Below are positions 23,733-53,590 of a stretch of DNA of 64,000 bases, in pieces. Source of the stretch: an uncultured Verrucomicrobiota bacterium. GTDB taxonomy: Bacteria; Verrucomicrobiota; Verrucomicrobiia; Palsa-1439. Position numbers and translations under genes: made by a program. The notes under the pieces are model-generated. The model made no database searches, had not been told where the DNA came from, and saw only the letters and a program-made list of their open reading frames with translations. Location of the stretch: assembly GCA_964533295.1 (NCBI GenBank), contig CAZHLM010000001.1, positions 180,633 to 244,632 on the forward strand. The letters are read 5' to 3'. The number at the start of each line of letters is the position of its first letter. Position 1 is the first letter of the stretch.

Positions 23733-23754
23733 GCAGTTCGTAACCGTGCGCGCG

Positions 23755-24177: not shown

Positions 24178-24190
24178 CTGGCGCTCCTTA

Positions 24191-24220
24191 TATCATTGCA
24201 TCAGAGATTGATGATATATT
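24191..24220. promoter_or_regulatory. AT-rich nested palindrome TATATCATTGCATCAGAGATTGATGATATA, candidate ArsR operator/promoter
   Basis: Perfect 8-bp arms TATATCAT/ATGATATA plus inner CATCA/TGATG. Located 14-43 nt upstream of the arsR start at 24177. AT-rich in a GC-rich genome. Confidence 0.35.
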
Positions 24221-24325
24221 AGCATGGCTGACGAGTATTGTACAGAGGCCACCCACGCCAATCAGCCGTTAAACACTATCGGCGCCATGTGGCGCCGATA
24301 AAGATGACCAGATGCCGATCAAGAG

Positions 24326-41255: not shown

Positions 41256-42254
41256 TCAAAACACGACAACGCGTGTGCCTTCAGGAGCCCGCACGTAATC
41301 CTCTCCAGGTGGGACGACGGGCAGCGTCCAGCGATACAGCCACTTGGCGTCTGCCGGCGTCAGGTTGATGCAACCGCGGCTGCGCGGCGTGCCGTAATCG
41401 TTGTGCCAGTACGTGCCGTGCAGCGCCACGCCCGTCCAGTAGATATAGGACACCCACGGCACACCCGGCAAATCAAAGCCGTTGCCATCGCTTGCCGCCA
41501 TGTGGCGCGACGGCCGCTTCTGCTCTACTTTGAATTCTCCGCTGGGCGTTGCCGCTCCCCGGCGCCCGGTCGAGACGCGAGCAGTCAAGGCGATCGCGCC
41601 ATTCTCATACGCGGTCAGGCTCTGCTGTTTCAAATCCACTTCGATGCGCTTGTCGGTCACGTTTGATGAGATCGGCGTCAGCTCGTCGTCATCCACACGG
41701 CGCAGGCTCTCAGCCAACACAAAGTAGTAGACCTTGTACCGGTCATCCAGCACGCGATACCACACGCGGCCCTTCTTATCCGTGACCGATTGGTCTACCC
41801 AGTGCGTGCTGGCGTAGTAAAAGCGATAGACCTTCTTCGGGTTGCCATCGTCATTGCGCCAGGCCTCGGTGAAGGGCACTGTCACTTCAGCCAGAAACCC
41901 TTCTTTGGGTACGTCCACAATTGGCTGGTTCAGGTCATTGCGTACCGGCTGGATCAGCGACGAATGTACCCAGCCCTCGTCCGTGCGCCACCAGACCGGG
42001 TTCTGCGATTGGCCGGGGTCGCCACCCTTCTTCTCTTCATAGATGTTGACAAGGGTGTCGGCCCAATACACCTTCGATTGCGCCTTGCCCGTGAACGCCG
42101 GCCGGTCGTAGGCCCGCAGCGAGGAGTTCGTGACGCGGCCCAGGGCGATAGGCGCCTCGGCGGGCTGCGCCCGCTGTGGCAAGTCCAATACGAGGCCCAG
42201 TGCAGCCATGGCTGTAACTTTGAGAAAATCACGGCGAGGGATAAGGCGCGCCAT
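41256..42254 (-). CDS. L,D-transpeptidase (YkuD family) with twin-arginine signal peptide
   Basis: Tat motif RRDFLKVTAMAALG. Catalytic HGTYWHND...SRGCINL (His/Cys). Confidence 0.8.
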   Translation of the reverse strand: MARLIPRRDFLKVTAMAALGLVLDLPQRAQPAEAPIALGRVTNSSLRAYDRPAFTGKAQSKVYWADTLVNIYEEKKGGDPGQSQNPVWWRTDEGWVHSSLIQPVRNDLNQPIVDVPKEGFLAEVTVPFTEAWRNDDGNPKKVYRFYYASTHWVDQSVTDKKGRVWYRVLDDRYKVYYFVLAESLRRVDDDELTPISSNVTDKRIEVDLKQQSLTAYENGAIALTARVSTGRRGAATPSGEFKVEQKRPSRHMAASDGNGFDLPGVPWVSYIYWTGVALHGTYWHNDYGTPRSRGCINLTPADAKWLYRWTLPVVPPGEDYVRAPEGTRVVVF

Positions 42255-44556
42255 CTTCTGGAGCTCCCAGGGGTGCCACGGGTGTTGGCAGTGTCTTGAA
42301 GTAGTCTAGCAGCACAGTTTCGTAAACCACTACGTTCGCTTGTTTGAACAGATCGTCGGTGAGCTGCGCCAACCTCTCCTCGTGCTTCTGCTGAGTGAGA
42401 ATTTCCTCGATATAGGGCCTGGCCTGCTCGAAGGCCAATCGTTCCGGCTCAGTGCGCTCAATAACCTGTACGATGTACAGGCTGTCTCCAAATTGAAAAG
42501 GCCGGCTGATCTCGTCTGGCTGTAACGGCAGAATCGCCTCGTGGAATGGATGCAGTTGCGCCTCGGCCAGGATATCTTCACTCTCCCCGATCCAGCCGTC
42601 GAGTTCGCCGCCGTTAGCGGCAGTCTCCGGGTCTTCGGAGTATTCCTGTGCGACGGCGGCAAAGTCTGCGCCCTGCTGGAAGAGGCCCGGCACGAGTTTT
42701 TTGTAGGCTTCGTCGGCGCGGGCGCGCGCGGCGTTCTGTTCGTCTTCGGTGGAACCCAGCCCGATGCGGATATAGCGGATGCGCGACCTGGGCGGCAGGG
42801 CCATCAGGTCAATGTTCTCATCGTAGAACTTTCGCAGCTCCTCGTCGGTCACCTGGATCTTGTCGTCAATCTCTTCCTGGTGCAGCATTTGCTTGAGCAC
42901 CTGCAGGCGCGCCTCGTCCACCAGCGGCTTGTTCTGCACGTCCAGCAGTTGGTCGTAGGTGTCTTCCACGAGCAGGAGACGCTCGATCAACAATTCCGCC
43001 AGTTGCTGCATGCCTTCCGGACCGCCGTACTGCGCCTGGGTGGAAATATCCAGCTCTTTGTACTCCGTGTAAAACTGCCTCAACGTATACTGCCGTCCCT
43101 TGAGCGTGAAGAGCGTTTTGCCGGCGTTAGCGTTGAACCATTCCTCAGTTTTCTGTTGCTGAACGGCCGCCATCACCACGGGTCGCACTTCATCCAGCGT
43201 CTGCGTGCGTGCGGGCTGAAGTTCGTTGAGCCGGACGATGTAGAAAAAGTCGCCCGCGCGAAAGACATCGCTCAATTCGTTCGCCGTCAGCGCGAACACC
43301 GCAGCATCCCAGGCCGGGTCGCGGGTGCCCTCGCTAAAAGTCGTGCCGGTGAAGGCCAGTGTGCCGGTGATCGCGCCAGCGACCTCGCCAAACGTTGCAC
43401 CTGAGCGCAGTTTGAGCAGCGCATCGTCGGCGTTCTGGCGAGCGGCAGCCTCATCGGCGCCCGCGGGGAATTGCAGTTCATCCACCACGGCGCGGCGCGA
43501 GAGTTTGAACAGGTCGAGGTTGGCGTCGTAATAGCGGCGCAAGTCGTCCTCGGCCGGGGCCGGTACGTCCAGCAGTTCGAAATTGCGGGTGATCGAGGCG
43601 TTGTCCTTCAGGCGCTTGATATACCCTTCGATATATCCCTGCTCGCGTTGCGACACGAGCGTCTGCCGGATTTGATCGCGCACTTGGTCAAGGGTTTGGT
43701 CCCCGAACTGCGCTTTGTTGGCGTTGTAGTAATCCTGGATTTCGCTCTCCGTCACCTGGATTTCGCCCTCGTGTCGCTGGAGGTCGAGCGACTCCAGGTT
43801 GAGGCTCTCGGTGATGTGCTGCATGGTGTGGCTGAAGTCTTCGTCGCGGTCTGGCTGGCGCGTGGCCGCCCAGCGCCGCACCAGTTCATCCATCACCATG
43901 TCCTCGACCACGGCCAGCAGCGTATCCGGCGTGCGGGCAACGACCTGATACTCTTCCGGCACGAGCAGTTTCAAGTGGGCTTCCACATCGGCGATGGTGA
44001 TCTGGCCGCCATCGAATGTGGCGATCACGTCGGAGGCAGGCGGCTTAGGCGCAGTCAGGCTCAGCCACCAGAGATAGGCTTGTGGCCACCAGCGATAGCC
44101 GCCTGCAAACCACAGACCGATGACGAACACCGCGGCCAGCCCGGCGTACAGCGCGCCCGTGCGCAGGCGCCCCAGCCAGATTTGTCGCGCCGTCGGCGCG
44201 GGTTCAGGCGCTGCCTGTTGGCTGGCTACCCCCTCCCCTTCAACCGGCAGGCCGGGTCCGGCGCCGGTCTCCCAAACCAGTGGCGCAGCCTCGCCAGTGG
44301 GTTCGACTGAGGGCGCGACTTCCGATGGGGGAGTCTCGACCACTGCCGCGGCGGGTTCTGCAGCCAGGGGAACCGCTGAAGCCTCGACCGACGATTCGGC
44401 GCTTATCGTCGGCGGCAAAGCTTCGACTTCGGGCGGCGCGACCTCAGGGGGCAGGGCCGGTTTCTCGACCGGCGGCGTCTGTGGTTCGGGCCTCGGTTCG
44501 CCACCGCGCAGGGCGTTGACGATGTCGTCCCAGACTTGCTTCCAGCCTTCAGCCAT
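42229..44556 (-). CDS. SurA/PpiD-like peptidyl-prolyl cis-trans isomerase with two parvulin domains and Pro-rich N-terminal region
   Basis: 775 aa. Pro/Ala/Glu-rich N-terminus, one TM, SurA-N-like helical regions, parvulin boxes (...ANGGELDGWIGE...FQFGDSLYIVQVIERTEP). Confidence 0.6.
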   Translation of the reverse strand: MAEGWKQVWDDIVNALRGGEPRPEPQTPPVEKPALPPEVAPPEVEALPPTISAESSVEASAVPLAAEPAAAVVETPPSEVAPSVEPTGEAAPLVWETGAGPGLPVEGEGVASQQAAPEPAPTARQIWLGRLRTGALYAGLAAVFVIGLWFAGGYRWWPQAYLWWLSLTAPKPPASDVIATFDGGQITIADVEAHLKLLVPEEYQVVARTPDTLLAVVEDMVMDELVRRWAATRQPDRDEDFSHTMQHITESLNLESLDLQRHEGEIQVTESEIQDYYNANKAQFGDQTLDQVRDQIRQTLVSQREQGYIEGYIKRLKDNASITRNFELLDVPAPAEDDLRRYYDANLDLFKLSRRAVVDELQFPAGADEAAARQNADDALLKLRSGATFGEVAGAITGTLAFTGTTFSEGTRDPAWDAAVFALTANELSDVFRAGDFFYIVRLNELQPARTQTLDEVRPVVMAAVQQQKTEEWFNANAGKTLFTLKGRQYTLRQFYTEYKELDISTQAQYGGPEGMQQLAELLIERLLLVEDTYDQLLDVQNKPLVDEARLQVLKQMLHQEEIDDKIQVTDEELRKFYDENIDLMALPPRSRIRYIRIGLGSTEDEQNAARARADEAYKKLVPGLFQQGADFAAVAQEYSEDPETAANGGELDGWIGESEDILAEAQLHPFHEAILPLQPDEISRPFQFGDSLYIVQVIERTEPERLAFEQARPYIEEILTQQKHEERLAQLTDDLFKQANVVVYETVLLDYFKTLPTPVAPLGAPEDGAPYPSP

Positions 44557-44568
44557 CGAACGTCACCT

Positions 44569-45684
44569 TCACGGGGCAGGTGTCGGTGCGGGAGCAGGGT
44601 TGCCCAACAGCCGCAAATTCACCTCGCCGCCGTTGCGCGTGTCCACCGTGTACACCTGCACGCGCGGCAGAATCTTCTCCAGTGTTTCCAGGTACAGCCG
44701 GTAGCGCGTCACGTCTTCGCCGTAAATTTCCGAGTTGGTTTGATACTCGGCCAGCACGGCCTCGAAAGCCTGCGCCGCGCCATTGGCCTGCGCCAGCGCG
44801 TCGGAGCGATAAGCCTGCGCCTGCGCCAGGATACCCTCGGCCTGGCCGCGCGCTTCGGGGAGGAGGCTGTTGGCGTAGCCGGTAGCTTCGTTGATGGCGC
44901 GGGCCTTGTCTTCTCGGGCGCTGTTGACGTCGGTGAAGGCGGCCGCCACCTCGTCGGGCGGGAAGGCTTTCTGCAGATTGAGCCCGACGACGACCAGGCC
45001 GCTGTTGTAGTCGTCCAGCCGCTTCTGCGTCTCAACACGGATGGCGTCTTGCAATGCCTGCCGTTCGGTGGTGAGGATGTCGTCCACCGGTAGTTGATTA
45101 ACGAGGCCCGTGACGGCCTGCCGCACCGCGTCGCGCACCAGGCGGTAGGGCGCGTATTGCACGTTGACGAGATAGGCAGCGGGGTCGCGCACCTGATACT
45201 GCACCACGATTTCCACGTCAATCACGTTGGTATCGCCGGAGAGCACCTGAAGTTTAGAAGGAGGCTCGGGATGCTCGTGGCCCTCTTCGGGTTCGGCCAC
45301 GCCGACGACTTCGCGGCGCACGTCGCCCACGTTGACAAGGTCCACGCGGTCAATGGGCCAGGGCAGGCGATAGTGCGCGCCCGGCTCTGCGCGCGGCTCG
45401 ACGATAGCCCCGAAGCGCCGCACGACCGCAGCCTCGCCCGGCGCAACGATGTACACGCCGGTGGCGAGATAGCCCGCGATGGCAAGACCGATGAGTCCCC
45501 ACAGGACCCGATTCCATTTGAGATGGCCGAAGGCGGCGCGCAGGTCAGCCAGCGGCGATTCGCCATCGCCGACCAGGCTACGAATGAATCGGGCGACAGC
45601 CTGTCCGATCTGGCGCAACAAGCCAGGCCAATCAAAGCGCGGGCGCTGTGGTGGAGGAGGTGGAGTGGGTGTGTCGGTCGTCAT
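44569..45684 (-). CDS. hflK: SPFH/band-7 protein, HflK-like
   Basis: N-terminal TM then YIVAPGEAAVVRRFGAIVEPRAEPGAHYRLPWPIDRV, followed by a coiled-coil. Confidence 0.7.
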   Translation of the reverse strand: MTTDTPTPPPPPQRPRFDWPGLLRQIGQAVARFIRSLVGDGESPLADLRAAFGHLKWNRVLWGLIGLAIAGYLATGVYIVAPGEAAVVRRFGAIVEPRAEPGAHYRLPWPIDRVDLVNVGDVRREVVGVAEPEEGHEHPEPPSKLQVLSGDTNVIDVEIVVQYQVRDPAAYLVNVQYAPYRLVRDAVRQAVTGLVNQLPVDDILTTERQALQDAIRVETQKRLDDYNSGLVVVGLNLQKAFPPDEVAAAFTDVNSAREDKARAINEATGYANSLLPEARGQAEGILAQAQAYRSDALAQANGAAQAFEAVLAEYQTNSEIYGEDVTRYRLYLETLEKILPRVQVYTVDTRNGGEVNLRLLGNPAPAPTPAP

Positions 45685-45693
45685 CCGGGCCTC

Positions 45694-46638
45694 CTACGGC
45701 GTGACCGTCGCCGTCGGTGTCGGGGTGGCGGTCACCTCGGAGTTGCTGTTGACGCTCGCGCTGGAATTTCCCGGGTTGAGGTATTGCAGCAGCTCCGAGT
45801 CAGATGGCAGGATGAGGGTCGTATTGCTGTCAATGAACGTCTCATAAGATTGCAGGGTGCGCAGGAAGCGATAGAACTCCGGGTCTTTGCCGAAGGCGGC
45901 GGCGTAGATGGCGATGGCCTCCGCGTCGGCCTGGCCGCGCGTCTCAGCCGCCTGCTGGTTGGCGTCGGCCAGGATTTGCGCTTTCTGCGCATCGGCGTCG
46001 GCGCGAATCTTGGCCGCCTGTTCAGTGCCCTCCGAGCGGAACTGGCGGGCGATGGCTTCGCGCTCGGCCTTCATGCGCTGGAAGACGCTGGTGAGGTTGG
46101 CCTGCGGGAATGTGAGCTGCTTGAGGCGCACGTCAGTGACGGCAAAGCCATATTGCGTCGTGCGGCCTGCCGCGCCCTGCGTCACAGCGTTCAGAGTATC
46201 GGGCAGTTTCAACTGCGCTGCGTCGGTGGTGACGAGTTGACTCAGTTCCACCTGGCCGAGCGCTACTCCGAGTTCAGAAGCCACAATGTCGGCCAGGCGC
46301 GTCTCCGCGCCCACCGGGTCGCGTACGGTTCGGAGGAAGGTCAGCGCGTCGGTCACTTCCCAGGTGGCGTAGGCTTCGAGGACGATGTTCTTTTTGTCTG
46401 CCGTCAGGAATTCAGTCTGCGGCAGGTTGTAGACGCGCAGCTGGTTGTTGATGCGCACCACGCTTTGTATGGGATCGGGCAGTTTGGCGTAGAGGCCCGG
46501 CTGGGTGATGACGTTCACCGGCTGGCCGAACTGCGTGACGATGGCGTACTCGGTGGCGTCCACTTGAAAGAAGACCAGGTAGGCGGCCAGAAACGCGAGG
46601 GCTATGAAGCCGAGGGCGAGGTTGCGGATGAGTTTCAT
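45694..46638 (-). CDS. hflC: SPFH/band-7 protein, HflC-like
   Basis: ATG 46638 (MKLIRNLALGFIALAF...). FQVDATEYAIVTQFGQP. Long Ala/Gln-rich coiled-coil. Thr/Pro C-tail. Confidence 0.7.
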   Translation of the reverse strand: MKLIRNLALGFIALAFLAAYLVFFQVDATEYAIVTQFGQPVNVITQPGLYAKLPDPIQSVVRINNQLRVYNLPQTEFLTADKKNIVLEAYATWEVTDALTFLRTVRDPVGAETRLADIVASELGVALGQVELSQLVTTDAAQLKLPDTLNAVTQGAAGRTTQYGFAVTDVRLKQLTFPQANLTSVFQRMKAEREAIARQFRSEGTEQAAKIRADADAQKAQILADANQQAAETRGQADAEAIAIYAAAFGKDPEFYRFLRTLQSYETFIDSNTTLILPSDSELLQYLNPGNSSASVNSNSEVTATPTPTATVTP

Positions 46639-46690
46639 AGAAGTTATTCCTTCTCCTCGTAGAGAGTCAGTAACGATGAGGCGATGGCCC

Positions 46691-46996
46691 TCAGTGGTTT
46701 CCGAACCAAGCGAACGCCTCAATAAACAGCCACTGAAAGGCGTGCCAGAGCCGTACCAGTGCCAGGTACACGTGCGTGAGTGAATGCAGCGATGGTTGCC
46801 ACAAAAGGAGGGACAATCCCACCATGACAGTGGCAAACGAGCAAAGTGCATAGTCAAGCCAGTTCAGGCGGAAACGGAGTGGGGCGGTGGCGCGAACGCG
46901 CGCCATCGTTCCCGGCAGCAGCGTAGCCGGCGCAGGTGGGATGGGATAAGTTCGCAATGCGTCGTCCACGGCCTGGAAATCTCGTTGTTGGGTCAT
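46691..46996 (-). CDS. hypothetical small membrane protein
   Basis: 101 aa with two hydrophobic helices, between hflC and the CDF::HflK gene. No family recognised. Confidence 0.3.
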   Translation of the reverse strand: MTQQRDFQAVDDALRTYPIPPAPATLLPGTMARVRATAPLRFRLNWLDYALCSFATVMVGLSLLLWQPSLHSLTHVYLALVRLWHAFQWLFIEAFAWFGNH

Positions 46997-47029
46997 CGGG
47001 ATGCCTTCAGAACCGGCTGTGTGCGTTCT

Positions 47030-48601
47030 TCACGGCTGGGGCGGAAAGGTCTGCGCGTTGCCCGAAGGGGCGCCGGGGAACCACAGGTCGGTGGTCTGCA
47101 GGCGCACGGCGGCGTCCAACACGAATTTGCGTGAACCGGGCAGGACTTTCTCGACGGCTTCGAGGTACAGGCGCAGGCGGGTGATTTCGGGCGCATCGGC
47201 ATACGCGCCCTGGCGGCTGGTGAACAACGCCGCGTCGCCCGCCGCCAGCGCCACCTTTTCGGCGCGGTAAGCGCTGGCGGCCTGGACGGTTTTTGCGGCG
47301 TCGCCGCGCGCCACGGGCAGGACCTCGTTCTGGTACGCCAGGGCTTCATTAATGAAGGTATTCTTGTCCTCGCGCGCGCTGGCCACGTCGCGGAACGCCT
47401 CGGCCACTTCCGGCGGGGGGCTGCTCTCCAGCAGTTGCACCCCGACGACTTGCAGGCCGGAGGCGTAACTGTCGAGAGCCGTTTGCGTCAGTGCGGCGGC
47501 GCGTTGCTGGATAGCGGATTTGTCCACGGTGAGCAGGGCATCCACGCCCTCGTTCGCCACCACCTGCCGCATCGCGGCGTCGGCGGCTTGCAGCACCGTG
47601 CCTTCAGGGTCTACCACGTTGAGCAAGAACGCGGCGGGATCGGTCACGGTGTAATGAATGCTCAGGCGCACATTGATGAGGTTCTCGTCGCCGGTGAGCA
47701 TGAGGCTGGCCGGAGCCTCGGCGCGGCGGATGCTGTTCACGGCCACGATGTCCACGCGGTCCACCGGCCACGGCAGGCGGTAATGCAGGCCAGGGCCGAC
47801 ATTCCCGGCAAGCACACTTCCGAAGCGGCGCACGACGGCGGCCTCGCCCGGCTGAACCGCGTAGAAACCGGAAAGCAGATACAGCGCCAGCAGTACGAGG
47901 GCGGCCGCCGGGACGAACACGCGCCACACGCCCGCCGCCACAAGCGGATGTCGGTGCACGTGGCCGGCGGTTTCGCCTTCGATGTCTAGCGTCTCCCGGT
48001 GGCGCAAGGCGTTGACCGCCGAGGACGCAATCTCGTAGCCGGAGAAGAGGATGAAGACCACCACCACGGCGGCGGCGGCCTTGTCCAGATTGGGCAGGCC
48101 GAGCGCCGCGCCTGCCAGCCCGGCCACCACCACGATGGAAGCATAGATGTCCATCTGCGAGTGATAGCCCCCGGCGATGAGGGCGGGCGAGTTAGTCTGC
48201 CGCCCGACGTAGAGTTTGTAACGCGCGATGAAGTAGGCCGCCGCGACTGTGACGAGCGAGGCCAGCGTGATGGGGCCGAGGTTCGCGAGTTCGGGCGGCT
48301 CGCCGCTCAATACCTCCAGCACGATGTCGAAACCGACGTAGAAGATGGCGGCGGCCACCGCCAGCGCCACCCAGTTTTCGATGGCGCTCACCTGGCCTTT
48401 GCGCTGGGCGCGCGCCTCGTTCCACCGGCTGAGGAGCAGGCCGACGAGCACGAAGCCGCCGATGGCGGCGTCGGCGATGGAGTGCAGGGCGCTGGCCCGC
48501 AAGGCCAGGCTGCCGGATGCGCCTGCGAGCCAGAATTTGAAGGCGATAAGCAGCAGGTTGATGACGATGGTGACGAGGACCGTGCGTTCTTTGCGGTTCA
48601 T
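47030..48601 (-). CDS. fusion protein: cation-diffusion-facilitator transmembrane domain (no CDF C-terminal domain) fused to an HflK-like SPFH domain
   Basis: ATG 48601 (MNRKERTV...). Six-TM CDF core with site-A motifs HSIAD (TM2) and HSQMD (TM5). Then one TM helix and YAVQPGEAAVVRRFGSVLAGNVGPGLHYRLPWPVDRV plus coiled-coil, in a single uninterrupted frame. Confidence 0.65.
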   Translation of the reverse strand: MNRKERTVLVTIVINLLLIAFKFWLAGASGSLALRASALHSIADAAIGGFVLVGLLLSRWNEARAQRKGQVSAIENWVALAVAAAIFYVGFDIVLEVLSGEPPELANLGPITLASLVTVAAAYFIARYKLYVGRQTNSPALIAGGYHSQMDIYASIVVVAGLAGAALGLPNLDKAAAAVVVVFILFSGYEIASSAVNALRHRETLDIEGETAGHVHRHPLVAAGVWRVFVPAAALVLLALYLLSGFYAVQPGEAAVVRRFGSVLAGNVGPGLHYRLPWPVDRVDIVAVNSIRRAEAPASLMLTGDENLINVRLSIHYTVTDPAAFLLNVVDPEGTVLQAADAAMRQVVANEGVDALLTVDKSAIQQRAAALTQTALDSYASGLQVVGVQLLESSPPPEVAEAFRDVASAREDKNTFINEALAYQNEVLPVARGDAAKTVQAASAYRAEKVALAAGDAALFTSRQGAYADAPEITRLRLYLEAVEKVLPGSRKFVLDAAVRLQTTDLWFPGAPSGNAQTFPPQP

Positions 48602-48775
48602 GCCATGGATTTCTCCGCCTGAAGGGACTCGACAAATATCTGGCCTCAGCCCGCACGCCGATTGGGCCAAGGCCAGTCGCTATGAAGCCGGACACCCGAG
48701 CATTCGGCGCAGCAGACTATAGCCGCGCCGGTTCAGAAAGTCCTGTACAAGTTCTGAAATTTGGATGAGAGCAGA

Positions 48776-50161
48776 CTATTGTGAGGCGTATTCGGGGAGC
48801 GTAATGCTCACCATTGTGCCACGCCCGGCGGCGCTTTCGACCGCCACCTCTCCGCCGTGTTCACGCACCGTCCAGTGGACGATGGCTAGGCCCAGGCCGA
48901 CGCCGGGAAGGCGTTCGCCGGAGGGTACGCGGAAGAACGGCTCGAAGATATGCGGCAGGGCGTCGGGGGGAATGCCGGGGCCGCAGTCTTCCACGCTCCC
49001 CTTCACCTGGCCCTCTTCGCGCCAGACGTTGAGGGTGACAACGCCTCCTGGCGGTGAGTGTTTCACCGCATTGTCAATCAGGTTGATGAACGCCTGCCGC
49101 AAGCGGTCAGGGTCGCCGCGCACGCAGGCCGGTTCGCACCGGTCTACTTTGAGCGTAACACTTCCCGTGGTCGATTGCGCTGCCTCGTAGGCTTCCATGA
49201 GCACATCATCCAGGGCGACCGGCTCAAGTGGGGACAAATGCCAGCCTGCTTCGGCCTGGGCGAGGAGCAGCAAATCGTCCAGCAGGCGGGCCACGTGCCG
49301 GCCGGTGCGCTGGAGCGCGGCGAGGGTTTCCTGCCGCCGCGCCGGGTCGTCGCCGAAGGCCGCCAGCAAGTCCACGTTGCCCAGCATGGAGGCGAGCGGC
49401 GTGCGGAGCTCGTGGGCGGCCTCCGCCAGGAAGCGCCGCTGGCTGTCGAACAGGATGTGCAGCCGGTCCAGCATTTCGTTGAAGGTGGTGGCCAGCGTGC
49501 CGACCTCATCGGCAGGGCCGGAATACGCCACGCGGCGCGAGAGGTCTTCGGCCCGGACAATGTCGCGTGCAGTCTGCGTGACGCGCGCCACAGGCCGCAA
49601 GCCCAGGCGGGCGAACACCCATCCGCCCGCCCATCCGAAAAGCAGTACCAGGGCCGTGCCGATGGCATAGATGAGCCGCAGACGACTGAGTGTGGTCTCC
49701 GACCCGGCGAGCGACTGCCCCACCTGCGCCGCACCCACAATCCGGCCGTCGCGTTGGATGGGGCGGTAAAACAACTGCACGGGTTGACCCGAAATTTCCG
49801 TCGCGGCGTAGAAGCTTTCGCCCGCTAACGCCCGGTTGAGGTCGGCGGCCGGCACGGGCAATTGCTGCGCGCCCAGGTTGAATGAGTGTGCGACGACCAC
49901 GCCTTCGGTGTTGAACAACTGAACGTAGATACCGGGCGAGCGGAACTCGTCGGTGGCTTCCTGGGAGATGCCCTCGATTGGGCGATTGGGCACCACGGCG
50001 ACCGCGTCGGCGACGTGGTTGGCGCGTTCGGCCAGGGTGTTGTTCACTTCGGCGCGCAACGAGTCGGACAGGACCCGGTACGAAATCAGGATGAAGCCCA
50101 ACAGGCCCAGGGCTGTCAGGCCCAGATGCCACAGGGTGAGTCGCCAGCGCAATGGGATCAT
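48776..50161 (-). CDS. two-component sensor histidine kinase
   Basis: Two TM, HAMP, H-box AAHELRTPLASM, HATPase boxes (DNAVKHS, GLGLAIV). Confidence 0.85.
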   Translation of the reverse strand: MIPLRWRLTLWHLGLTALGLLGFILISYRVLSDSLRAEVNNTLAERANHVADAVAVVPNRPIEGISQEATDEFRSPGIYVQLFNTEGVVVAHSFNLGAQQLPVPAADLNRALAGESFYAATEISGQPVQLFYRPIQRDGRIVGAAQVGQSLAGSETTLSRLRLIYAIGTALVLLFGWAGGWVFARLGLRPVARVTQTARDIVRAEDLSRRVAYSGPADEVGTLATTFNEMLDRLHILFDSQRRFLAEAAHELRTPLASMLGNVDLLAAFGDDPARRQETLAALQRTGRHVARLLDDLLLLAQAEAGWHLSPLEPVALDDVLMEAYEAAQSTTGSVTLKVDRCEPACVRGDPDRLRQAFINLIDNAVKHSPPGGVVTLNVWREEGQVKGSVEDCGPGIPPDALPHIFEPFFRVPSGERLPGVGLGLAIVHWTVREHGGEVAVESAAGRGTMVSITLPEYASQ

Positions 50162-50829
50162 GCCGCGTCATCCTGAAGCACATAGCCGACGCCGTGCAGG
50201 GTGTGAATCAACGGCGGGTCGCCGAGTTTGCGGCGCAGTCGAGAGATGTATACGTCCAGCACATTGGGGTCGTGCTCGTGATCCATGCCCCAGATGCAGG
50301 CGATGAGCGTCTCGCGTGAGAGCGCGTTCCGGGGATGTTCCAGGAAGAGGGCCAGCAGGTCGTATTCGGTGCGGGTCAGACGGATCACCTTGCCCCTGCG
50401 GCGCGCCACGCGGAGGTTGCCGTCCAACTCCAGATCGGCAAAGGTGATGAGATTGCTCATCCCACCCGTGCGGCGCAGCAACGCGCGCAGACGCGCCAGC
50501 AGTTCGTCAAACGCAAACGGCTTGACCAGATAATCGTCCGCCCCGGAGTCCAGCCCCATCACCCGGTCGGGCACAGCGTCGCGCGCGGTGAGCATGAGCA
50601 CCGGGCCGGTGAAGCCGGACTCGCGCAGCTGGCGGCAGGCCATCATGCCGTCCATGCCCGGCAGCATCACGTCGAGGAGGATGAGATCGGGGTGACTGCG
50701 GCGCAGTTGATCCAGCCCGGCCTCGGCGCTGGTGGCGACCCGTAGGCGGTAACCCGCGTACGTCAGCCCACGCCGCAGGTAGTCGGCAAACTCCAACTCA
50801 TCCTCAATAATGAGAAGATTGGCCTCCAT
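50158..50829 (-). CDS. OmpR-family response regulator
   Basis: LLIIEDE...ILLDVMLPGMDG...LMLTA receiver. Winged-helix output. ATGA overlap with the kinase. Confidence 0.85.
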   Translation of the reverse strand: MEANLLIIEDELEFADYLRRGLTYAGYRLRVATSAEAGLDQLRRSHPDLILLDVMLPGMDGMMACRQLRESGFTGPVLMLTARDAVPDRVMGLDSGADDYLVKPFAFDELLARLRALLRRTGGMSNLITFADLELDGNLRVARRRGKVIRLTRTEYDLLALFLEHPRNALSRETLIACIWGMDHEHDPNVLDVYISRLRRKLGDPPLIHTLHGVGYVLQDDAA

Positions 50830-50830
50830 G

Positions 50831-51208
50831 TCATCCCGATGCCCGATGGCGCACGAAGCCTCGCATGCCTAGCACAGCCGCCGTCGTACCCAGGGCCATG
50901 CCGGCCCCGAGCATGTGCGTATGTCCCAATGCACCCAAAATGAAAGAGGCGACCACTACCGCCAATCCGCCCAGGCAGATAATCACCGCCGGCCAGCGAG
51001 TCCTCCCAGGCTCGCCAAACTCCCATAGAGAAGCCGAGACAATGACCAGGCCGAAAAGAATGCCCAAGCGGACATCCGCCATGTGACTCGCGATCCCCAA
51101 AACGAAGGGGGAAAGGAAAAGCCCAAGCCCCGCCAGTAACGTCAACCAGTACATGCTCGCGGCTCGTATGACTCTGTCATCTTTGCCTGAGAAGACTCCT
51201 TTGACCAT
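50831..51208 (-). CDS. hypothetical membrane protein (SPW-repeat-like)
   Basis: 125 aa, four predicted TM helices, LSPFVLG-type motif. Confidence 0.35.
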   Translation of the reverse strand: MVKGVFSGKDDRVIRAASMYWLTLLAGLGLFLSPFVLGIASHMADVRLGILFGLVIVSASLWEFGEPGRTRWPAVIICLGGLAVVVASFILGALGHTHMLGAGMALGTTAAVLGMRGFVRHRASG

Positions 51209-51264
51209 CTATGTCTCTGCTGCATTGACTGCGTTCGTCTATCTGCACAGTGCGGCCGGACAGT

Positions 51265-51684
51265 CTAGCGGTCTTCATGCTCGCCCGCCGAACTCTGGCT
51301 GCGCAGCATGATCGCCAGACACGCAATCAGCGCTAATTCAACGAGCTTTGAGATGGAATCCACCAGGCCCACCGGTTCCACCTCGCCCGCCTCAGGCCCG
51401 AAGAACGGGAGGCCGAGAGTCCGGGTGACAGCCCAGAGCGCGATGATGGCGGCATTGCCGAGGATGCCTGTCCATAGCAGTTCGCGCTGTGGGGGCGTGT
51501 AGGCCAGCACAATCAGGGCGAACAGCCACTGGCAGGCCGAGGCAATCACAAAGAAAACCCCATAGCCAATCCACTCCTCAAAGTGATCGGGCGCAACCAG
51601 AATGTGGATGAAGCCGGCTAATGCCGAGAGCGCTGCGGCGGCGTATTGCCAGCGTTTGTCGAGGGCTGATAGTTGTGCAGACAC
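51265..51684 (-). CDS. hypothetical membrane protein
   Basis: 139 aa, four hydrophobic helices, acidic C-tail. No family recognised. Confidence 0.35.
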   Translation of the reverse strand: MSAQLSALDKRWQYAAAALSALAGFIHILVAPDHFEEWIGYGVFFVIASACQWLFALIVLAYTPPQRELLWTGILGNAAIIALWAVTRTLGLPFFGPEAGEVEPVGLVDSISKLVELALIACLAIMLRSQSSAGEHEDR

Positions 51685-51717: not shown

Positions 51718-52152
51718 TCATTGGTCCTGGACCGTGATAGTAACGGGGACGTCACCGGCGTTGCGGAACCGCAGAGTCAGCGAATAAACATCGCCGGCCT
51801 TGAGATCTTGCTTCAGCTCGATGAGCATGACGTGCAGACCGCCGGGCTTGAACTCCACCGTGCCGCCCGCGGGGATGTCAACGGTCGCCTGTGGGTGCAT
51901 GGACATGACGTTATTGGCGTCCACCATGGTCATGTGCATCTCGGCCTGCCCGGCGCTATCGGTTGTTACGCCGAGGAGTGTATCGGCGTGGACTGTGCCG
52001 TTGCGAATGATGAAGTAGGCGGCGCCGTTGTTGCCCGCTGCAGCCGGGCGCGACCACCCGTCGCTGACGCTAAGCGCCGGGGAAGAACATGCGGACAATC
52101 CGAGCAGGATACCTAAGAGCGTGCGGACGAAGATGATGGTTTTGACTTTCAT
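51718..52152 (-). CDS. copper chaperone PCu(A)C (DUF461) lipoprotein
   Basis: Lipobox LSACS. H(M)x10M...HxM copper motif (AEMHMTMVDANNVMSMHPQ). Confidence 0.7.
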   Translation of the reverse strand: MKVKTIIFVRTLLGILLGLSACSSPALSVSDGWSRPAAAGNNGAAYFIIRNGTVHADTLLGVTTDSAGQAEMHMTMVDANNVMSMHPQATVDIPAGGTVEFKPGGLHVMLIELKQDLKAGDVYSLTLRFRNAGDVPVTITVQDQ

Positions 52153-52174
52153 CGGGTTCTTCCACCTTGCGGCC

Positions 52175-52861
52175 TCATGGCGACATGTTTTGATGGTTCA
52201 TCACCGGCTCATCGGGCACGGGCGGGAAACCTTTGCGCCGTAACAGGTCTTGCATATAGGCGATCTCGCTCGTCTGCGCGTCCACGATGGACTGAGCCAG
52301 CCGGCGGACCTGGGGCTGTTGCGCGCGTTCCAGCGCGCCCTGTCCCATGATCACGCCGCCGCGATGATGCGGGATCATCAACTGCAGGAACAGTCCGTCC
52401 GCCGCCACGCCTTTCAGGCCCGCCAGCTGGTTGATCTGTTCGCGCGTCGCCATGCCGGGCATTGAGTAGCCAGCCGGCATGCCCATCCACGCCATGGCCG
52501 GGTCGGTACTGGCGATGGGTAAATTCCACACCGTCAGCCAGCCCTGCATCTGGCCGATCTGCGCCTGCTGCGTCAGCATGATGTCGAGCGCGAGCTGGCG
52601 CATCTCAGGGTCGTCGGTGCGGTCGCGCAATAGCGTCGCCATATCCACCGCCTGCGCGTGGTGCCTCATCATATCGCGGGCGAAGCCCACGTCCGGGGAG
52701 CTCGCGCTGGGCGCGAGGTTTTGCCGCGCGCCCAGCCAGAAGGCGAGCACCGCCACAATCACCAGCAACGCGCCAAATGACGCGAGCACGCTCGCGTCAA
52801 ATGCGAGCACGGCGCGGGGCGAGGGCGACTCGGCGGGCATTTGTTCAGTCGTCATCCTCAT
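52175..52861 (-). CDS. DUF305-domain protein (membrane-anchored)
   Basis: Two DUF305 four-helix repeats with FARDMMRHHAQAV and MIPHHRGGVIM motifs. Confidence 0.7.
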   Translation of the reverse strand: MRMTTEQMPAESPSPRAVLAFDASVLASFGALLVIVAVLAFWLGARQNLAPSASSPDVGFARDMMRHHAQAVDMATLLRDRTDDPEMRQLALDIMLTQQAQIGQMQGWLTVWNLPIASTDPAMAWMGMPAGYSMPGMATREQINQLAGLKGVAADGLFLQLMIPHHRGGVIMGQGALERAQQPQVRRLAQSIVDAQTSEIAYMQDLLRRKGFPPVPDEPVMNHQNMSP

Positions 52862-52866
52862 GTCTC

Positions 52867-53517
52867 CTAGCCCGGCTGTCCAACACCACCGGTGCAGGGC
52901 GCGCCCGGCTCCGGCGCCAGCGGGCTCAGTTCATACTTCTGGATGAAGCGCATCAGCCGGGGATCGTCGGCCCGTTCCAATTTGAGTTGATAGCCCCACG
53001 CGGAGATCACAATTGGACTGGGCAAGTCTGGGTACGGGCTGAGCAGGCGATAGCCGCTCTGCCGAGCCAGATCCTGAAGTTGCTGGATTTCAGCGGCGGG
53101 GAGATCAGGCCGGTAGGTGATCCATACCGCGCCGTGTTCGAGCGAGTGAACGGCGTTCTCGTTCTGGAGGGGCTGAGTGTATGCGCCACAGTTCTGCCAC
53201 GCCGGCTCGTGCGGACCACCGACCGGGGGCGTCTGTGCGTAAGCGACGGCTCCCTGCACGTGACCGCGCTCGAGCGCGGGGAATTGTTCGACGCCCTCAA
53301 TCGGCTTTGAGGCTTCCGCCCGGGCCGCTAAGGTTTGGTAGACGGCGAGCGCCACGATACCGACCACGGCCAGCAGGATGACGCTAACGACAGTCGTTCC
53401 CGTGATCGTCCGGCGTCGGCGGACCTTGCGGCGCGCCCCGGCAGGCTTCTTTTTCTTTGTCGTCTGTTCCATCAACTCTTCTCCTTGTTTTAGAGCCACC
53501 GCCGCACGTTGCGCCAA
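52867..53517 (-). CDS. DUF3105-domain protein (membrane-anchored)
   Basis: Lys-rich N-terminus, one TM, HSLEHGAVWITY core typical of DUF3105. Confidence 0.6.
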   Translation of the reverse strand: MAQRAAVALKQGEELMEQTTKKKKPAGARRKVRRRRTITGTTVVSVILLAVVGIVALAVYQTLAARAEASKPIEGVEQFPALERGHVQGAVAYAQTPPVGGPHEPAWQNCGAYTQPLQNENAVHSLEHGAVWITYRPDLPAAEIQQLQDLARQSGYRLLSPYPDLPSPIVISAWGYQLKLERADDPRLMRFIQKYELSPLAPEPGAPCTGGVGQPG

Positions 53518-53590
53518 CAGGCGAGTCAGGTGTTCCTCTTCTCAGGACGCGTTGGTGCTCCTGCGCGCTCAACCGTGATTATGATCGCCT

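What the first reader, a model, noticed from the sequence alone, without database searches (positions are those of the whole stretch)
47030..48601. Novel fusion of a CDF metal-transporter membrane domain to an HflK-type SPFH domain, next to separate hflK and hflC genes
A single uninterrupted frame encodes a six-TM cation-diffusion-facilitator core with both site-A motifs (HSIAD, HSQMD) but no CDF cytoplasmic C-terminal domain. In its place, after one extra TM helix, comes a complete HflK-like band-7 domain and coiled-coil. Two stand-alone SPFH genes (hflC-like 45694..46638 and hflK-like 44569..45684) follow. This suggests a metal transporter physically built into an HflK/C-type membrane microdomain or protease-modulator complex. 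I do not recognise this architecture as described.
Basis: seen in the sequence. Interest (0 to 1): 0.55.

Follow-up and report, generated by a model that had tools for sequence, protein, structure and literature searches.

The report
Metal exporter fused to HflK scaffold
A real and widespread bacterial gene fuses a zinc-type metal export pump to HflK, a subunit of a membrane cage-forming scaffold, and always sits beside two more scaffold genes, which gives a testable clue to what these poorly understood cages do.

Summary
Window 47030..48601 (-) is one intact 523-aa ORF. It has a six-TM CDF membrane domain with site A intact (H40/D44/H147/D151) and no cytoplasmic C-terminal domain. A ~25-aa disordered His-rich linker follows, then a seventh TM helix and a full HflK-type SPFH plus coiled-coil region. 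It is not an assembly artefact. More than 120 clusters at 90% identity share the architecture, and full-length copies occur in about 10 phyla, several cultured Alphaproteobacteria and one conjugative plasmid. Both halves are under strong purifying selection.

New findings:
- Every fusion locus has the order fusion-HflC-HflK, a K*-C-K triad. A membrane-anchored double-parvulin PPIase usually accompanies it.
- In Acidobacteriota a P1B heavy-metal ATPase replaces the CDF on the same HflK paralogue, in the same triad.
- The stand-alone partner HflK carries a conserved acidic two-His loop on its extracytoplasmic side.
- Neighbours are enriched for two-component systems, ZntA-like ATPases, PCu(A)C and HtrA.

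The best reading is an SPFH-scaffolded metal-efflux and envelope-stress module. Assembly, the transported metal and any FtsH link are inferred, not shown. Databases name these proteins only "HflK", and I found no paper describing them. I rate it a new variant of a known kind.

The parts
47030..48601 (-). CDF::HflK fusion gene (523 aa plus stop), the first gene of the cassette
   Evidence: Intact ORF. Pfam Cation_efflux plus Band_7. NCBIfam hflK at 235.5 bits and CDF at 88.1 bits, both above cut-off. More than 120 homologous clusters share the architecture.
48002..48601 (-). CDF membrane domain, aa 1-200 (TM1-TM6). It carries an invariant cytoplasmic N-terminal RKERT motif. Site A codons are H40 (48482-48484), D44 (48470-48472), H147 (48161-48163) and D151 (48149-48151).
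   Evidence: Pfam profile covered 2-197 of 198. Matches FieF/YiiP 3h90 residues 10-207 and YiiP 8f6k_B at rmsd 3.2 A. Site A is HDHD in 40 of 49 informative fusions across phyla, with the variants HGHH, HDHN, QDHD and HDHE. dN/dS is 0.04-0.14.
47924..48001 (-). Cytoplasmic linker, aa 201-226 (ALRHRETLDIEGETAGHVHRHPLVAAGVWR region), acidic and His-rich. It occupies the place of the CDF C-terminal domain.
   Evidence: AF2 pLDDT is below 50 at 208-222. It is the least conserved segment (0.15 mean pairwise identity). It contains 2-5 His in most Chloroflexota, Alpha/Gammaproteobacteria and WWE3 members, a Cys-His motif in Thermodesulfobacteriota, and is 44-55 aa, Arg-rich and nearly His-free in Eisenbacteria-type members.
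47864..47923 (-). TM7, aa 227-246. It corresponds to the single TM helix of HflK and carries the chain from the cytoplasm to the outside.
   Evidence: Hydropathy peak at 228-246. AF2 helix at 223-243. Aligns with the E. coli HflK TM region from residue 77.
47114..47863 (-). HflK-type SPFH domain plus coiled-coil helices, aa 247-496 (extracytoplasmic)
   Evidence: TIGR01933 covers aa 246-496. E. coli HflK 7vhp matches at E 1e-49 over residues 77-343. Foldseek hits 7vhq_E, 9cz2 and 7wi3. It is 44% identical to the operon's stand-alone HflK.
46691..46996 (-). 101-aa ORF between the fusion and hflC. Its status as a gene is uncertain and it is specific to this organism.
   Evidence: No Pfam or NCBIfam hit. 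No homologue in any of 83 related loci. Close relatives have only ~50 nt here. GC3 is 0.66 against 0.75-0.85 in the neighbours. It was called as a gene on the Logan contig.
45694..46638 (-). hflC paralogue of the triad (314 aa)
   Evidence: TIGR01932 hflC at 192 bits, above the 134 cut-off. It immediately follows the fusion in every fusion locus.
44569..45684 (-). Stand-alone hflK paralogue of the triad (371 aa). It has a Pro-rich cytoplasmic N-tail and a conserved acidic two-His loop (AEPEEGHEHPEPP, aa 130-142, window 45259-45297).
   Evidence: TIGR01933 at 221 bits. It follows hflC in every fusion locus whose contig extends far enough. The two-His loop is present in 31 of 32 non-redundant loci outside the Eisenbacteria-type clade (L083 is the exception), and absent from the fused K and the Eisenbacteria-type clade.
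42229..44556 (-). Membrane-anchored PPIase (775 aa; one TM at ~134-152, extracytoplasmic parvulin-type domains), the last gene of the cassette
   Evidence: Pfam Rotamase_2 (127 bits, 2 stretches), Rotamase_3 and Rotamase. TM. It follows hflK, or precedes the fusion, in all non-Eisenbacteria-type loci with enough sequence. Weak PrsA, PpiD and SurA-type NCBIfam hits.
48776..50829 (-). OmpR-family response regulator (50158..50829) and HAMP/HisKA sensor kinase (48776..50161), directly upstream on the same strand. A candidate regulator of the cassette.
   Evidence: Pfam. The best NCBIfam hits are heavy-metal sensor kinase TIGR01386 (193 bits, full length) and heavy-metal response regulator TIGR01387 (215 bits), both below the curated cut-offs. 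A two-component system is the most enriched neighbour across phyla.

Best explanation
The gene encodes a functional divalent-metal exporter of the CDF family, most likely Zn2+/Co2+/Cd2+ type. It has lost its cytoplasmic regulatory and dimerisation domain and is instead covalently joined, through a short flexible cytoplasmic linker, to the N-terminus of an HflK paralogue.

The six-TM exporter ends in the cytoplasm. The seventh helix is HflK's own membrane anchor, and it places the SPFH and coiled-coil part outside the membrane, as in E. coli HflK.

Together with the co-transcribed HflC and a second HflK paralogue that bears a His loop, it is inferred to form an HflK/C-type alternating ring or cage. 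In that ring some K positions would carry an exporter. This would be an SPFH-scaffolded metal-efflux platform.

The scaffold would take over the oligomerising and stabilising role of the lost CTD. It would hold the pump in a defined membrane patch, next to a membrane-anchored parvulin chaperone that repairs envelope proteins under metal stress. The acidic two-His loops of the partner HflK are candidates for receiving or buffering the exported metal on the outer face.

The module is accessory and horizontally mobile, and it is usually placed under a two-component system.

Shown here: the architecture, topology logic, conservation, triad synteny, the second exporter class and the metal-related context. 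Inferred: the hetero-oligomeric assembly, transport activity and substrate, the role of the His loop, and the regulation. A connection to FtsH is possible but unsupported.
For: Architecture and intact transport site:
- Domain assignments are above curated cut-offs and the CTD is absent.
- The AF2 model and fold matches agree with both halves, as do sequence matches to solved structures.
- Site A is HDHD in 40 of 49 informative fusions, with conservative variants, and E75 and D173 are invariant.
- The CDF half is at least as conserved as the SPFH half (0.46 vs 0.42 mean pairwise identity), and dN/dS is 0.04-0.14.

Topology: positive-inside loops and six TM helices plus one.

Recurrence:
- 486 homologues at E<=1e-10, with nearly all of the top 120 carrying both domains at full length.
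- 76 of the 150 best representatives at 50% identity for the CDF moiety carry the HflK part.
- Full-length copies are found in about 10 phyla, including cultured Tianweitania, Chelativorans, Allosediminivita and Kouleothrix.

Synteny: the invariant order fusion-HflC-HflK occurs in every locus long enough to show it, while ordinary hflK-hflC loci have no second K. The PPIase is attached in most clades.

Independent support from a second exporter: a P1B heavy-metal ATPase is fused to the same K paralogue in the same triad, with at least 120 clusters in Acidobacteriota. The K domains of both fusion types and of the triad K fall in one derived clade in a rough NJ tree.

Partner subunit: the stand-alone K has a conserved two-His acidic loop.

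Context:
- Flanks are enriched for two-component systems, HMA/P-type ATPases, PCu(A)C and HtrA.
- ZntA-like ATPases lie next to the cassette in L016 and L035.
- A copper-handling cluster lies upstream in the window's organism.
- The cassette sits on a conjugative plasmid inside a metal, Dsb and SCO island.

Precedents: PacL/CtpC metal-efflux platforms (PMC9374683), and stomatin cages that enclose AQP1 and UT-B (PMC12407830; PDB 9zd2 appears).
Against: - No experiment or multimer model shows that the fusion assembles with HflC or the second HflK, or on which side of the TM ring the exporter would sit.
- CDFs normally act as dimers stabilised by the CTD. In an alternating K/C ring, neighbouring K subunits are separated by a C subunit, so dimer formation is not obviously possible.
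- Metal specificity is inferred only from the HDHD quartet and from ZntA-like neighbours. The window's own neighbours are copper-related (CopCD, PCu(A)C, DUF305).
- The two-component system hits fall below curated cut-offs.
- The Eisenbacteria-type clade lacks the PPIase within the sequenced flanks, the His-rich linker and the His loop, so these are not universal features of the system.
- ftsH is not linked to the cassette: it is near only 1 of 83 loci.
Confidence: 0.6

Rival explanations
1. Regulated-proteolysis device. Fusing the exporter to HflK tethers it inside an FtsH-HflK/C holoenzyme, so that FtsH can degrade or spare the pump quickly according to metal status. In this view the SPFH part is chiefly a protease adaptor rather than a scaffold for transport.
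For: The HflK moiety scores as an HflK equivalog and aligns with E. coli HflK over TM, SPFH and coiled coil. E. coli HflK/C encloses FtsH and changes the levels of membrane-protein substrates (PMC12048511). The flexible cytoplasmic linker could serve as a site for FtsH to engage.
Against: ftsH shows no genomic linkage. A constitutively tethered substrate would destroy a structural cage subunit with each turnover. The extra, conserved second HflK with an extracytoplasmic His loop and the PPIase are not explained. I could not map the published HflK-FtsH contact onto the sequences.
Confidence: 0.15
2. Sensor rather than pump. The CTD-less CDF domain binds metal at site A but mainly acts as a metal-sensing module, a transceptor, that switches the conformation or opening of the HflK/C assembly. 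Bulk efflux would be done by the neighbouring ZntA-like ATPase.
For: The CTD is lost. A separate heavy-metal P-type ATPase lies in the same gene string in Alphaproteobacteria, Spirochaetales and Marinimicrobia loci. The cytoplasmic linker is His-rich.
Against: The whole TMD, not just the binding quartet, is under strong constraint. In the Acidobacteriota variant the fused partner is a complete P-type ATPase with DKTGT, GDGINDAP and CPC motifs, that is, an energised pump. CTD-less CDFs are reported to bind Zn and Cd (Russell & Soulimane 2012, cited in PMC4995437).
Confidence: 0.12
3. Metallation or sequestration chamber. The exporters pump metal into the extracytoplasmic volume enclosed by the K*-C-K cage. 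There the ring of His loops captures it, either to load newly exported proteins being folded by the PPIase or to sequester toxic metal.
For: SPFH cages enclose a membrane patch and a lumen. The partner K has a conserved extracytoplasmic two-His acidic loop. Triad HflC is almost devoid of His and Cys. The module co-occurs with the PPIase, PCu(A)C, SCO and DsbB.
Against: The orientation of the His loop, towards the lumen or the outside, is unknown. The Eisenbacteria-type clade lacks both loop and PPIase. There is no evidence that the exporter lies inside the ring. Native E. coli cages can be open.
Confidence: 0.1
4. Assembly or annotation artefact, or a decaying pseudogene formed by accidental read-through between a CDF gene and hflK.
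Against: The identical protein is on 4 independent contigs. Hundreds of full-length homologues reach down to ~31-35% identity in many phyla. The junction is conserved. dN/dS is far below 1 in both halves. It is present in complete genomes and in a finished plasmid.
Confidence: 0.01

Closest known systems
E. coli HflK/HflC (SPFH) complex with FtsH (PDB 7vhp, 7wi3, 9cz2)
   Same: The C-terminal 300 aa align with HflK residues 77-343 (E 1e-49), covering TM, SPFH and coiled coil, and score above the HflK equivalog cut-off. An HflC gene is adjacent. The SPFH part is predicted to be extracytoplasmic.
   Different: The ~78-aa disordered cytoplasmic N-tail of HflK is replaced by a six-TM metal exporter. 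The locus has two K paralogues and one C, in the order K*-C-K, whereas ordinary loci have K-C. The triad K domains fall in a derived clade apart from canonical HflKs in a rough NJ tree. No link to ftsH was found. The module is accessory and plasmid-borne in one case.
Cation diffusion facilitators such as YiiP/FieF, CzcD and ZitB (TC 2.A.4), and CTD-less CDFs such as MmCDF3 of Maricaulis maris
   Same: A six-TM Cation_efflux fold with an H-D/H-D site A on TM2 and TM5. Like MmCDF3 it lacks the cytoplasmic CTD; that protein's Zn and Cd binding is reported by Russell & Soulimane 2012, cited in PMC4995437.
   Different: The C-terminus continues into a seventh TM helix and an HflK ectodomain. The usual CTD-mediated dimerisation and allosteric metal sensing cannot apply. 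I could not read the MmCDF3 paper, which is not held, so I do not know whether MmCDF3 is related to this family.
PacL1/CtpC 'metal efflux platforms' or 'effluxosomes' of Mycobacterium tuberculosis
   Same: A heavy-metal exporter is organised and stabilised in membrane foci by a dedicated single-TM scaffold encoded in the same operon. That scaffold carries a His-rich metal-binding motif (PMC9374683; PMC13043812).
   Different: PacL proteins are small DUF1490 proteins facing the cytoplasm, not SPFH proteins, and the platforms were shown to be independent of flotillin. Here the scaffold is a genuine SPFH/HflK protein, faces outward, and is covalently fused to the pump.
Stomatin cages enclosing AQP1 and UT-B; stomatin regulation of channels and transporters
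   Same: An SPFH oligomeric dome associates with specific membrane transport proteins (PMC12407830; PDB 9zd2 is among the fold hits).
   Different: That association is non-covalent, eukaryotic, homo-oligomeric and on the cytoplasmic face. Here the client is genetically fused, so its identity is fixed and can be read from the sequence.
P1B-ATPase::HflK fusions of Acidobacteriota (found here, L083 and P0121-P0240)
   Same: The same HflK paralogue, the same K*-C-K triad, and the same logic: a metal exporter that ends in the cytoplasm, then a linker, the HflK TM helix and the SPFH domain.
   Different: The exporter is an ATP-driven CPC-type P1B pump rather than a proton-coupled CDF. There is no PPIase within the sequenced flanks and no His loop in the partner K.

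Membership tests
Cation diffusion facilitator (CDF, Pfam PF01545 / TIGR01297) | Six-TM Cation_efflux membrane domain recognised by the family HMMs | tested here: met
   PF01545 scores 92.3 bits (cut-off 26.6) over profile 2-197 of 198. TIGR01297 scores 88.1 bits (cut-off 82.35). The YiiP TMD superposes at rmsd 3.2 A.
Cation diffusion facilitator (CDF, Pfam PF01545 / TIGR01297) | Transport site A: four coordinating residues, two on TM2 (H/D-x3-D) and two on TM5 (H-x3-D) | tested here: met
   H40, D44, H147 and D151 are present. The quartet is HDHD in 40 of 49 informative fusions, and the variants keep coordinating residues.
Cation diffusion facilitator (CDF, Pfam PF01545 / TIGR01297) | Cytoplasmic C-terminal domain (ZT_dimer fold) that mediates dimerisation and metal sensing | tested here: not met
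   No ZT_dimer hit. The TIGR01297 match stops at profile position 198 of 285. Only a ~25-aa disordered linker follows TM6.
Cation diffusion facilitator (CDF, Pfam PF01545 / TIGR01297) | Metal/H+ antiport activity as a homodimer | not testable with these tools
   This needs transport assays and oligomer analysis.
HflK (TIGR01933 equivalog; SPFH superfamily) | Family HMM score above the curated cut-off, with an SPFH domain plus long coiled-coil helices | tested here: met
   TIGR01933 scores 235.5 bits against a cut-off of 159.4. E. coli HflK matches at E 1e-49. Foldseek hits HflK chains at E 1e-19.
HflK (TIGR01933 equivalog; SPFH superfamily) | Type-II topology: cytoplasmic N-terminus, one TM helix, extracytoplasmic SPFH domain | tested here: met
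   The six-TM exporter is predicted to end in the cytoplasm and TM7 leads outward. Loop charges follow the positive-inside rule. This is a prediction only.
HflK (TIGR01933 equivalog; SPFH superfamily) | Paired with an adjacent hflC gene as the hetero-oligomer partner | tested here: met
   hflC (TIGR01932, 192 bits) is 390 nt downstream, and it is adjacent in every related locus. Physical pairing was not tested.
HflK (TIGR01933 equivalog; SPFH superfamily) | Binds FtsH and modulates its proteolysis | not testable with these tools
   No ftsH in the window and ftsH is near only 1 of 83 loci. E. coli hflKC is, to my knowledge, not linked to ftsH either, so this is uninformative. The published contact residue could not be mapped.
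HflK (TIGR01933 equivalog; SPFH superfamily) | Canonical two-gene hflK-hflC locus with one K | tested here: not met
   All fusion loci are K*-C-K triads. Canonical loci L055-L082 are K-C only.
PacL/P1B-ATPase metal efflux platform | A DUF1490 (PacL) scaffold encoded next to a P1B-ATPase | tested here: inconclusive
   No DUF1490 appears among the 25 commonest Pfam families in 124 flanking proteins, but that list is truncated. The scaffold here is SPFH, so this is a functional analogy, not membership.

The most novel reading that the evidence does not exclude
The K*-C-K triad builds a dedicated metal-handling compartment on the outer face of the cytoplasmic membrane. Exporters fused to cage subunits, a CDF or a P1B-ATPase, would pump metal into the space enclosed by the SPFH cage. 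A ring of conserved two-His acidic loops on the partner HflK would capture it there. The captured metal would either be sequestered or be loaded onto newly exported proteins being folded by the co-encoded membrane-anchored PPIase. This would be the first SPFH cage with a defined small-molecule cargo and a client that is hard-wired in the gene.
Probability: 0.12. Interest if true: 0.88.

Novelty: new variant of a known kind. Interest (0 to 1): 0.68.

Why it matters
The clients and the function of bacterial SPFH cages such as HflK/C are still debated. Here evolution has written the client into the scaffold gene, and it has done so for two unrelated classes of heavy-metal exporter. It has also kept a fixed three-subunit stoichiometric cassette across about 10 phyla.

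This turns a vague question, what HflK/C-type microdomains organise, into a concrete system that can be tested genetically in cultured hosts and on a conjugative plasmid. It links SPFH scaffolds to metal homeostasis, whereas the mycobacterial efflux platforms were reported to be independent of flotillin. It also offers a natural example of how a CDF can work without its C-terminal domain.

There is a practical point too. Hundreds of these proteins are annotated only as 'FtsH protease activity modulator HflK', which hides a transporter.

Tried and rejected
- FtsH linkage. I scanned the window and 83 loci for FtsH Walker A, SRH and HEXGH motifs. Only L029 has an ftsH nearby, so there is no conserved linkage.
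- FtsH-contact residue. PMC12048511 cites HflK Arg191 contacting FtsH residues 62-64. By the numbering of the alignment, residue 191 is not an Arg. Qiao et al. 2022 is not held, and two other structural papers do not mention the residue. I dropped this test.
- Promoter and terminator scan of 42000-51300. Counts were not above shuffles (3 vs 1.3; 10 vs 7.0), so it was uninformative. The operon inference rests on spacing (33, 52, 9 and 12 nt) and on conserved order.
- Crude hydropathy TM count for the ATPase fusion. It undercounts and mis-places helices. The topology argument for that protein rests on the established P1B topology, with a cytoplasmic C-terminus. That is my own knowledge, not a test.
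- MmCDF3 paper (Russell & Soulimane 2012). It is not held, so I could not check whether that CTD-less CDF is related.
- First Biopython tree attempts failed or timed out. They were replaced by a numpy NJ tree. That tree is rough, and bootstrap support was obtained only for ATPase-K monophyly and for all-K against HflC.
- Literature searches for CDF+SPFH, HflK+'cation efflux', SPFH+P-type ATPase+fusion, and surveys of prokaryotic SPFH proteins found no description of the architecture. The library lacks most subscription journals, so absence is not proof.
- The artefact or pseudogene explanation is rejected (see rival explanations).
Full report
**1. Observation**

The minus-strand ORF 47030..48670 is uninterrupted. 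All homologues begin at M-[ND]-RKERT, so the ATG at 48601 is the start.

Pfam finds Cation_efflux at aa 9-199 (92 bits, covering the whole 198-position profile) and Band_7 at aa 249-420 (70 bits). It finds nothing else, and in particular no ZT_dimer domain. NCBIfam places aa 246-496 in the HflK equivalog TIGR01933 at 235.5 bits (cut-off 159.4). It places aa 5-199 in the CDF superfamily model at 88.1 bits (cut-off 82.35), but only over profile positions 2-198 of 285. The cytoplasmic C-terminal domain is therefore missing.

The motifs HSIAD (H40..D44) and HSQMD (H147..D151) are present. Hydropathy gives six TM helices plus a seventh at 228-246. K/R-rich loops fall on one side and acidic loops on the other. 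This fits an N-in, C-in exporter followed by a helix that takes the chain outside.

An AlphaFold2 model built on 96 family members has mean pLDDT 80. It shows six helices, a disordered stretch at 208-222, a helix at 223-243, an alpha/beta SPFH domain and a 73-residue helix. Foldseek against the PDB returns E. coli HflK chains first (7vhq_E at E 1e-19; also 9cz2 and 7wi3) and the YiiP membrane domain (8f6k_B, rmsd 3.2 A over 208 columns). By sequence, E. coli HflK residues 77-343 align at E 1e-49 and FieF residues 10-207 at E 6e-5.

The exporter thus replaces the ~78-residue cytoplasmic N-tail of HflK, and TM7 is HflK's own anchor. The fused HflK part is 44% identical to the stand-alone one, so the two are diverged paralogues rather than a recent duplicate.

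**2. Not an artefact, and not rare**

The identical protein is carried by four independent contigs. A search of 5.8 billion proteins gave 486 hits at E<=1e-10. Nearly all of the best 120 are 511-539 aa long and carry both PF01545 and PF01145, at identities from 100% down to 59%.

A profile-free scan of 1.84 billion representatives at 50% identity, using the CDF moiety alone, found that 76 of the 150 closest representatives carry the HflK part.

A scan of one genome per species found full-length copies in:
- Chloroflexota (the best match is 82% identical, so the window is from an Anaerolineales-like organism);
- cultured Alphaproteobacteria (Tianweitania sediminis Z8, Allosediminivita pacifica DSM 29329, Chelativorans multitrophicus DSM 9103 and a Nitratireductor);
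- Gammaproteobacteria MAGs and a complete WWE3 genome;
- Actinomycetota, Rokubacteria/Methylomirabilota, Thermodesulfobacteriota and Spirochaetales;
- Marinimicrobia, Gemmatimonadota and many Eisenbacteria.

Across 53 non-redundant fusions, site A is HDHD in 40 of 49 informative sequences. The variants are HGHH (Thermodesulfobacteriota), HDHN, QDHD and HDHE. E75 and D173 are invariant.

Mean pairwise identity across phyla is 0.46 for the CDF membrane domain, 0.42 for the SPFH domain, 0.53 for the coiled coil and 0.15 for the linker. Pairwise dN/dS against relatives is 0.04-0.14 for the CDF half and 0.08-0.13 for the HflK half, with dS near saturation. The CDF half is therefore not a decayed membrane anchor.

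**3. The locus is a conserved cassette**

In Kouleothrix and in an alphaproteobacterial genome the flanks differ completely, but the string fusion-Band_7-Band_7-double-Rotamase is kept.

I searched all 83 loci with the window's proteins. Every fusion locus whose contig extends far enough has the order fusion, then HflC, then HflK, on one strand with short gaps. The ordinary hflK-hflC loci recovered by the same scan (L055-L082) have no second K.

A 650-800-aa membrane-anchored PPIase with parvulin-type domains follows the second K. In four loci (L027, L029, L049, L066) it instead precedes the fusion. This holds in all clades except the Eisenbacteria/Gemmatimonadota type.

In the window the gaps are 33, 52, 9 and 12 nt. 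The promoter and terminator scan was no better than shuffles. The window contains no other SPFH or CDF gene.

**4. A second exporter class on the same scaffold**

Locus L083 (Bryobacteraceae) has a 972-aa ORF in place of the CDF fusion. Pfam finds E1-E2_ATPase (184 bits), Hydrolase (103 bits) and Band_7 (76 bits). NCBIfam finds heavy-metal P1B ATPase (548 bits) and hflK (210 bits). The CPC, DKTGT and GDGINDAP motifs are present. HflC and HflK follow it.

This architecture also forms a large family. The best 120 clusters are all 954-1018 aa with the same three Pfam domains, mostly Acidobacteriota. Sources name them variously 'HflK', 'Cu+-exporting ATPase' or 'cadmium-translocating P-type ATPase'.

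In a rough NJ tree of K-type domains rooted on HflC, canonical HflKs are basal. All fused Ks and triad stand-alone Ks lie in one derived clade. The ATPase-fused Ks are monophyletic (40/40 bootstraps) and lie next to the Eisenbacteria-type CDF-fused Ks.

So two mechanistically unrelated metal exporters share the same partner and the same triad. Both are known to end in the cytoplasm; for the P1B pumps this is established knowledge and was not tested here. This is the strongest argument that the link between metal export and this SPFH system is functional.

**5. Partner subunits carry matching signatures**

The stand-alone triad HflK has a ~15-aa insertion in its SPFH domain, relative to the fused K and to E. 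coli HflK. The insertion has two conserved His in an acidic, proline-rich frame:
- PEE-x-H-x-HPEPP in Chloroflexota and Alphaproteobacteria (window aa 130-142);
- PEPEHP-x-H in Gammaproteobacteria, WWE3 and Spirochaetes;
- PEH-x4-H in four further phyla;
- a longer GHGGHxGHG-type insert in Thermodesulfobacteriota.

The Eisenbacteria-type clade has no His there. That is the same clade whose fusion linker is nearly His-free.

Triad HflC outside that clade is almost free of His and Cys, at 0.2 and 0.0 per protein against 1.8 and 0.4 in canonical HflC. I read the His loop as a candidate extracytoplasmic metal site. Whether it faces the cage lumen cannot be decided with these tools.

**6. Context**

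In the window's organism the cassette lies directly downstream, on the same strand, of:
- a 917-aa CopC-CopD-YtkA-cytochrome c fusion;
- DUF3105, DUF305, PCu(A)C and an SPW protein;
- an OmpR-type response regulator with its HAMP sensor kinase.

The best NCBIfam matches for that two-component system are the heavy-metal models TIGR01387 and TIGR01386. The matches cover the full length but fall below the curated cut-offs.

Among 124 flanking proteins from 36 non-redundant loci, the commonest families are histidine kinase and response-regulator domains (9-14 members). They are followed by E1-E2_ATPase/Hydrolase/HMA (3-4), Trypsin_2+PDZ, that is HtrA (4), and PCu(A)C (3).

In Tianweitania and Chelativorans the order is RR-HK, fusion, HflC, HflK, PPIase, a ZntA-like ATPase (840 bits to PRK11033) and then PCu(A)C.

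On the conjugative plasmid of Aquibium oceanicum B7 the same string continues into SCO, DsbB and a thioredoxin-domain protein. CopC, CopD, Nramp and more PCu(A)C genes lie nearby, and an IS3 transposase sits between the two-component system and the fusion.

The 64-65% identity between Chloroflexota and Rhizobiales copies, together with the plasmid copy, points to horizontal spread of an accessory module.

**7. Mechanism**

Shown here:
- an intact, constrained CDF transport domain without a CTD;
- covalent linkage to an HflK paralogue, with a topology that puts the SPFH part outside;
- obligatory co-occurrence with HflC and a second HflK;
- frequent co-occurrence with an extracytoplasmic PPIase, two-component systems and metal-homeostasis genes;
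- an analogous fusion with a P1B pump.

Inferred:
- The three SPFH proteins form an HflK/C-like alternating ring in which some K positions carry an exporter.
- The ring substitutes for the CTD in oligomerising and stabilising the pump, and fixes it in a membrane patch.
- The substrate is a divalent metal of the Zn/Co/Cd type, judged from the HDHD quartet and the ZntA-like neighbours. The window's copper-related neighbours leave Cu open.
- The module serves envelope defence under metal stress.

I give this 0.6. The rivals are listed with their tests: a regulated-proteolysis tether to FtsH, a metal-sensing transceptor, and a metallation or sequestration chamber. The artefact explanation is excluded.

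**8. Comparison and novelty**

By HMM criteria the protein is both a CDF and an HflK. It fails one defining feature of each family: the CTD, and the two-gene K-C locus.

In how it works, the closest systems are the mycobacterial PacL/CtpC metal-efflux platforms. Their scaffold is not SPFH, and they were shown to be independent of flotillin (PMC9374683; PMC13043812). Also close are the stomatin cages that enclose AQP1 and UT-B (PMC12407830).

The 2009 survey of prokaryotic SPFH proteins mentions no transporter fusion (PMC2636767). Four targeted full-text searches found no description either. Databases hold hundreds of members named only 'FtsH protease activity modulator HflK'.

I rate it a new variant of a known kind, with interest 0.68. 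It would surprise specialists moderately. More importantly, it gives the open question of SPFH-cage function a client encoded in the scaffold gene itself, in organisms that can be cultured.

Noticed in passing
window 45259-45297 (-), aa 130-142 of the stand-alone HflK: There is a conserved acidic two-His insertion (AEPEEGHEHPEPP) in the extracytoplasmic SPFH domain of the triad's stand-alone HflK. It is present, with exactly two or more His, in 31 of 32 non-redundant loci outside the Eisenbacteria-type clade, and is absent from the fused K, E. coli HflK and the Eisenbacteria-type clade. It is a candidate metal-binding loop.
   Followed up: partly
L083:6060-8978 (+) and proteins P0121-P0240: A large Acidobacteriota family in which a CPC-type P1B heavy-metal ATPase, instead of a CDF, is fused to the same HflK paralogue and followed by HflC and HflK. 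Its TM6 motif reads HQLSS, which fits neither the CopA nor the ZntA signature that I remember.
   Followed up: partly
window 45694-46638 (-) and the HflC genes of loci L001-L035: Triad HflC proteins outside the Eisenbacteria-type clade contain almost no His or Cys (0.2 and 0.0 per protein), against 1.8 and 0.4 in canonical HflC. This may reflect avoidance of stray metal binding.
   Followed up: no
window 46691-46996 (-): A 101-aa ORF with one hydrophobic segment is inserted between the fusion and hflC. It has no family hit and no homologue in any related locus, close relatives have only ~50 nt there, and its GC3 is lower than its neighbours' (0.66 vs 0.75-0.85). It may be a lineage-specific small membrane protein or a non-coding spacer.
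   Followed up: partly
window ~51718-56344 (-), mapped from L084:2258-6884: A copper-handling cluster lies directly upstream on the same strand. It comprises a 917-aa CopC-CopD-YtkA-cytochrome c fusion protein, DUF3105, DUF305 and PCu(A)C (51718..52152), plus a 139-aa membrane protein and an SPW-repeat protein. Kouleothrix also has DUF3105 and DUF305 immediately before its fusion gene.
   Followed up: partly
proteins P0263, P0270, P0273 and others: The nearest non-fused relatives of the CDF moiety are ~400-aa CDFs. They keep the CTD and add a further C-terminal domain with a conserved HFGEAPYF motif, which I recognise as resembling NifX/NifB-type domains; this was not tested.
   Followed up: no
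L030-L034, L041 (Thermodesulfobacteriota): This sub-clade has site A changed to H-G-H-H, a Cys-His motif (DYSCH) in the cytoplasmic linker, and a much longer His-rich insert of 65-68 aa (GHGGH-type in some members) in the partner HflK. It may have a different metal specificity.
   Followed up: no
L085 (Aquibium oceanicum B7 plasmid NZ_CP018172.1), locus 10299-25012: The whole cassette sits on a conjugative MOBP/MPF_T plasmid within a metal, SCO, DsbB and thioredoxin island. An IS3-type transposase is inserted between the two-component system and the fusion gene.
   Followed up: yes
L005 (CAZGUM010000003.1): A contig labelled 'uncultured Methylomonas sp.' carries a cassette 82% identical to the window's and essentially the same as Anaerolineales loci. 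The MAG label is probably a binning error.
   Followed up: no
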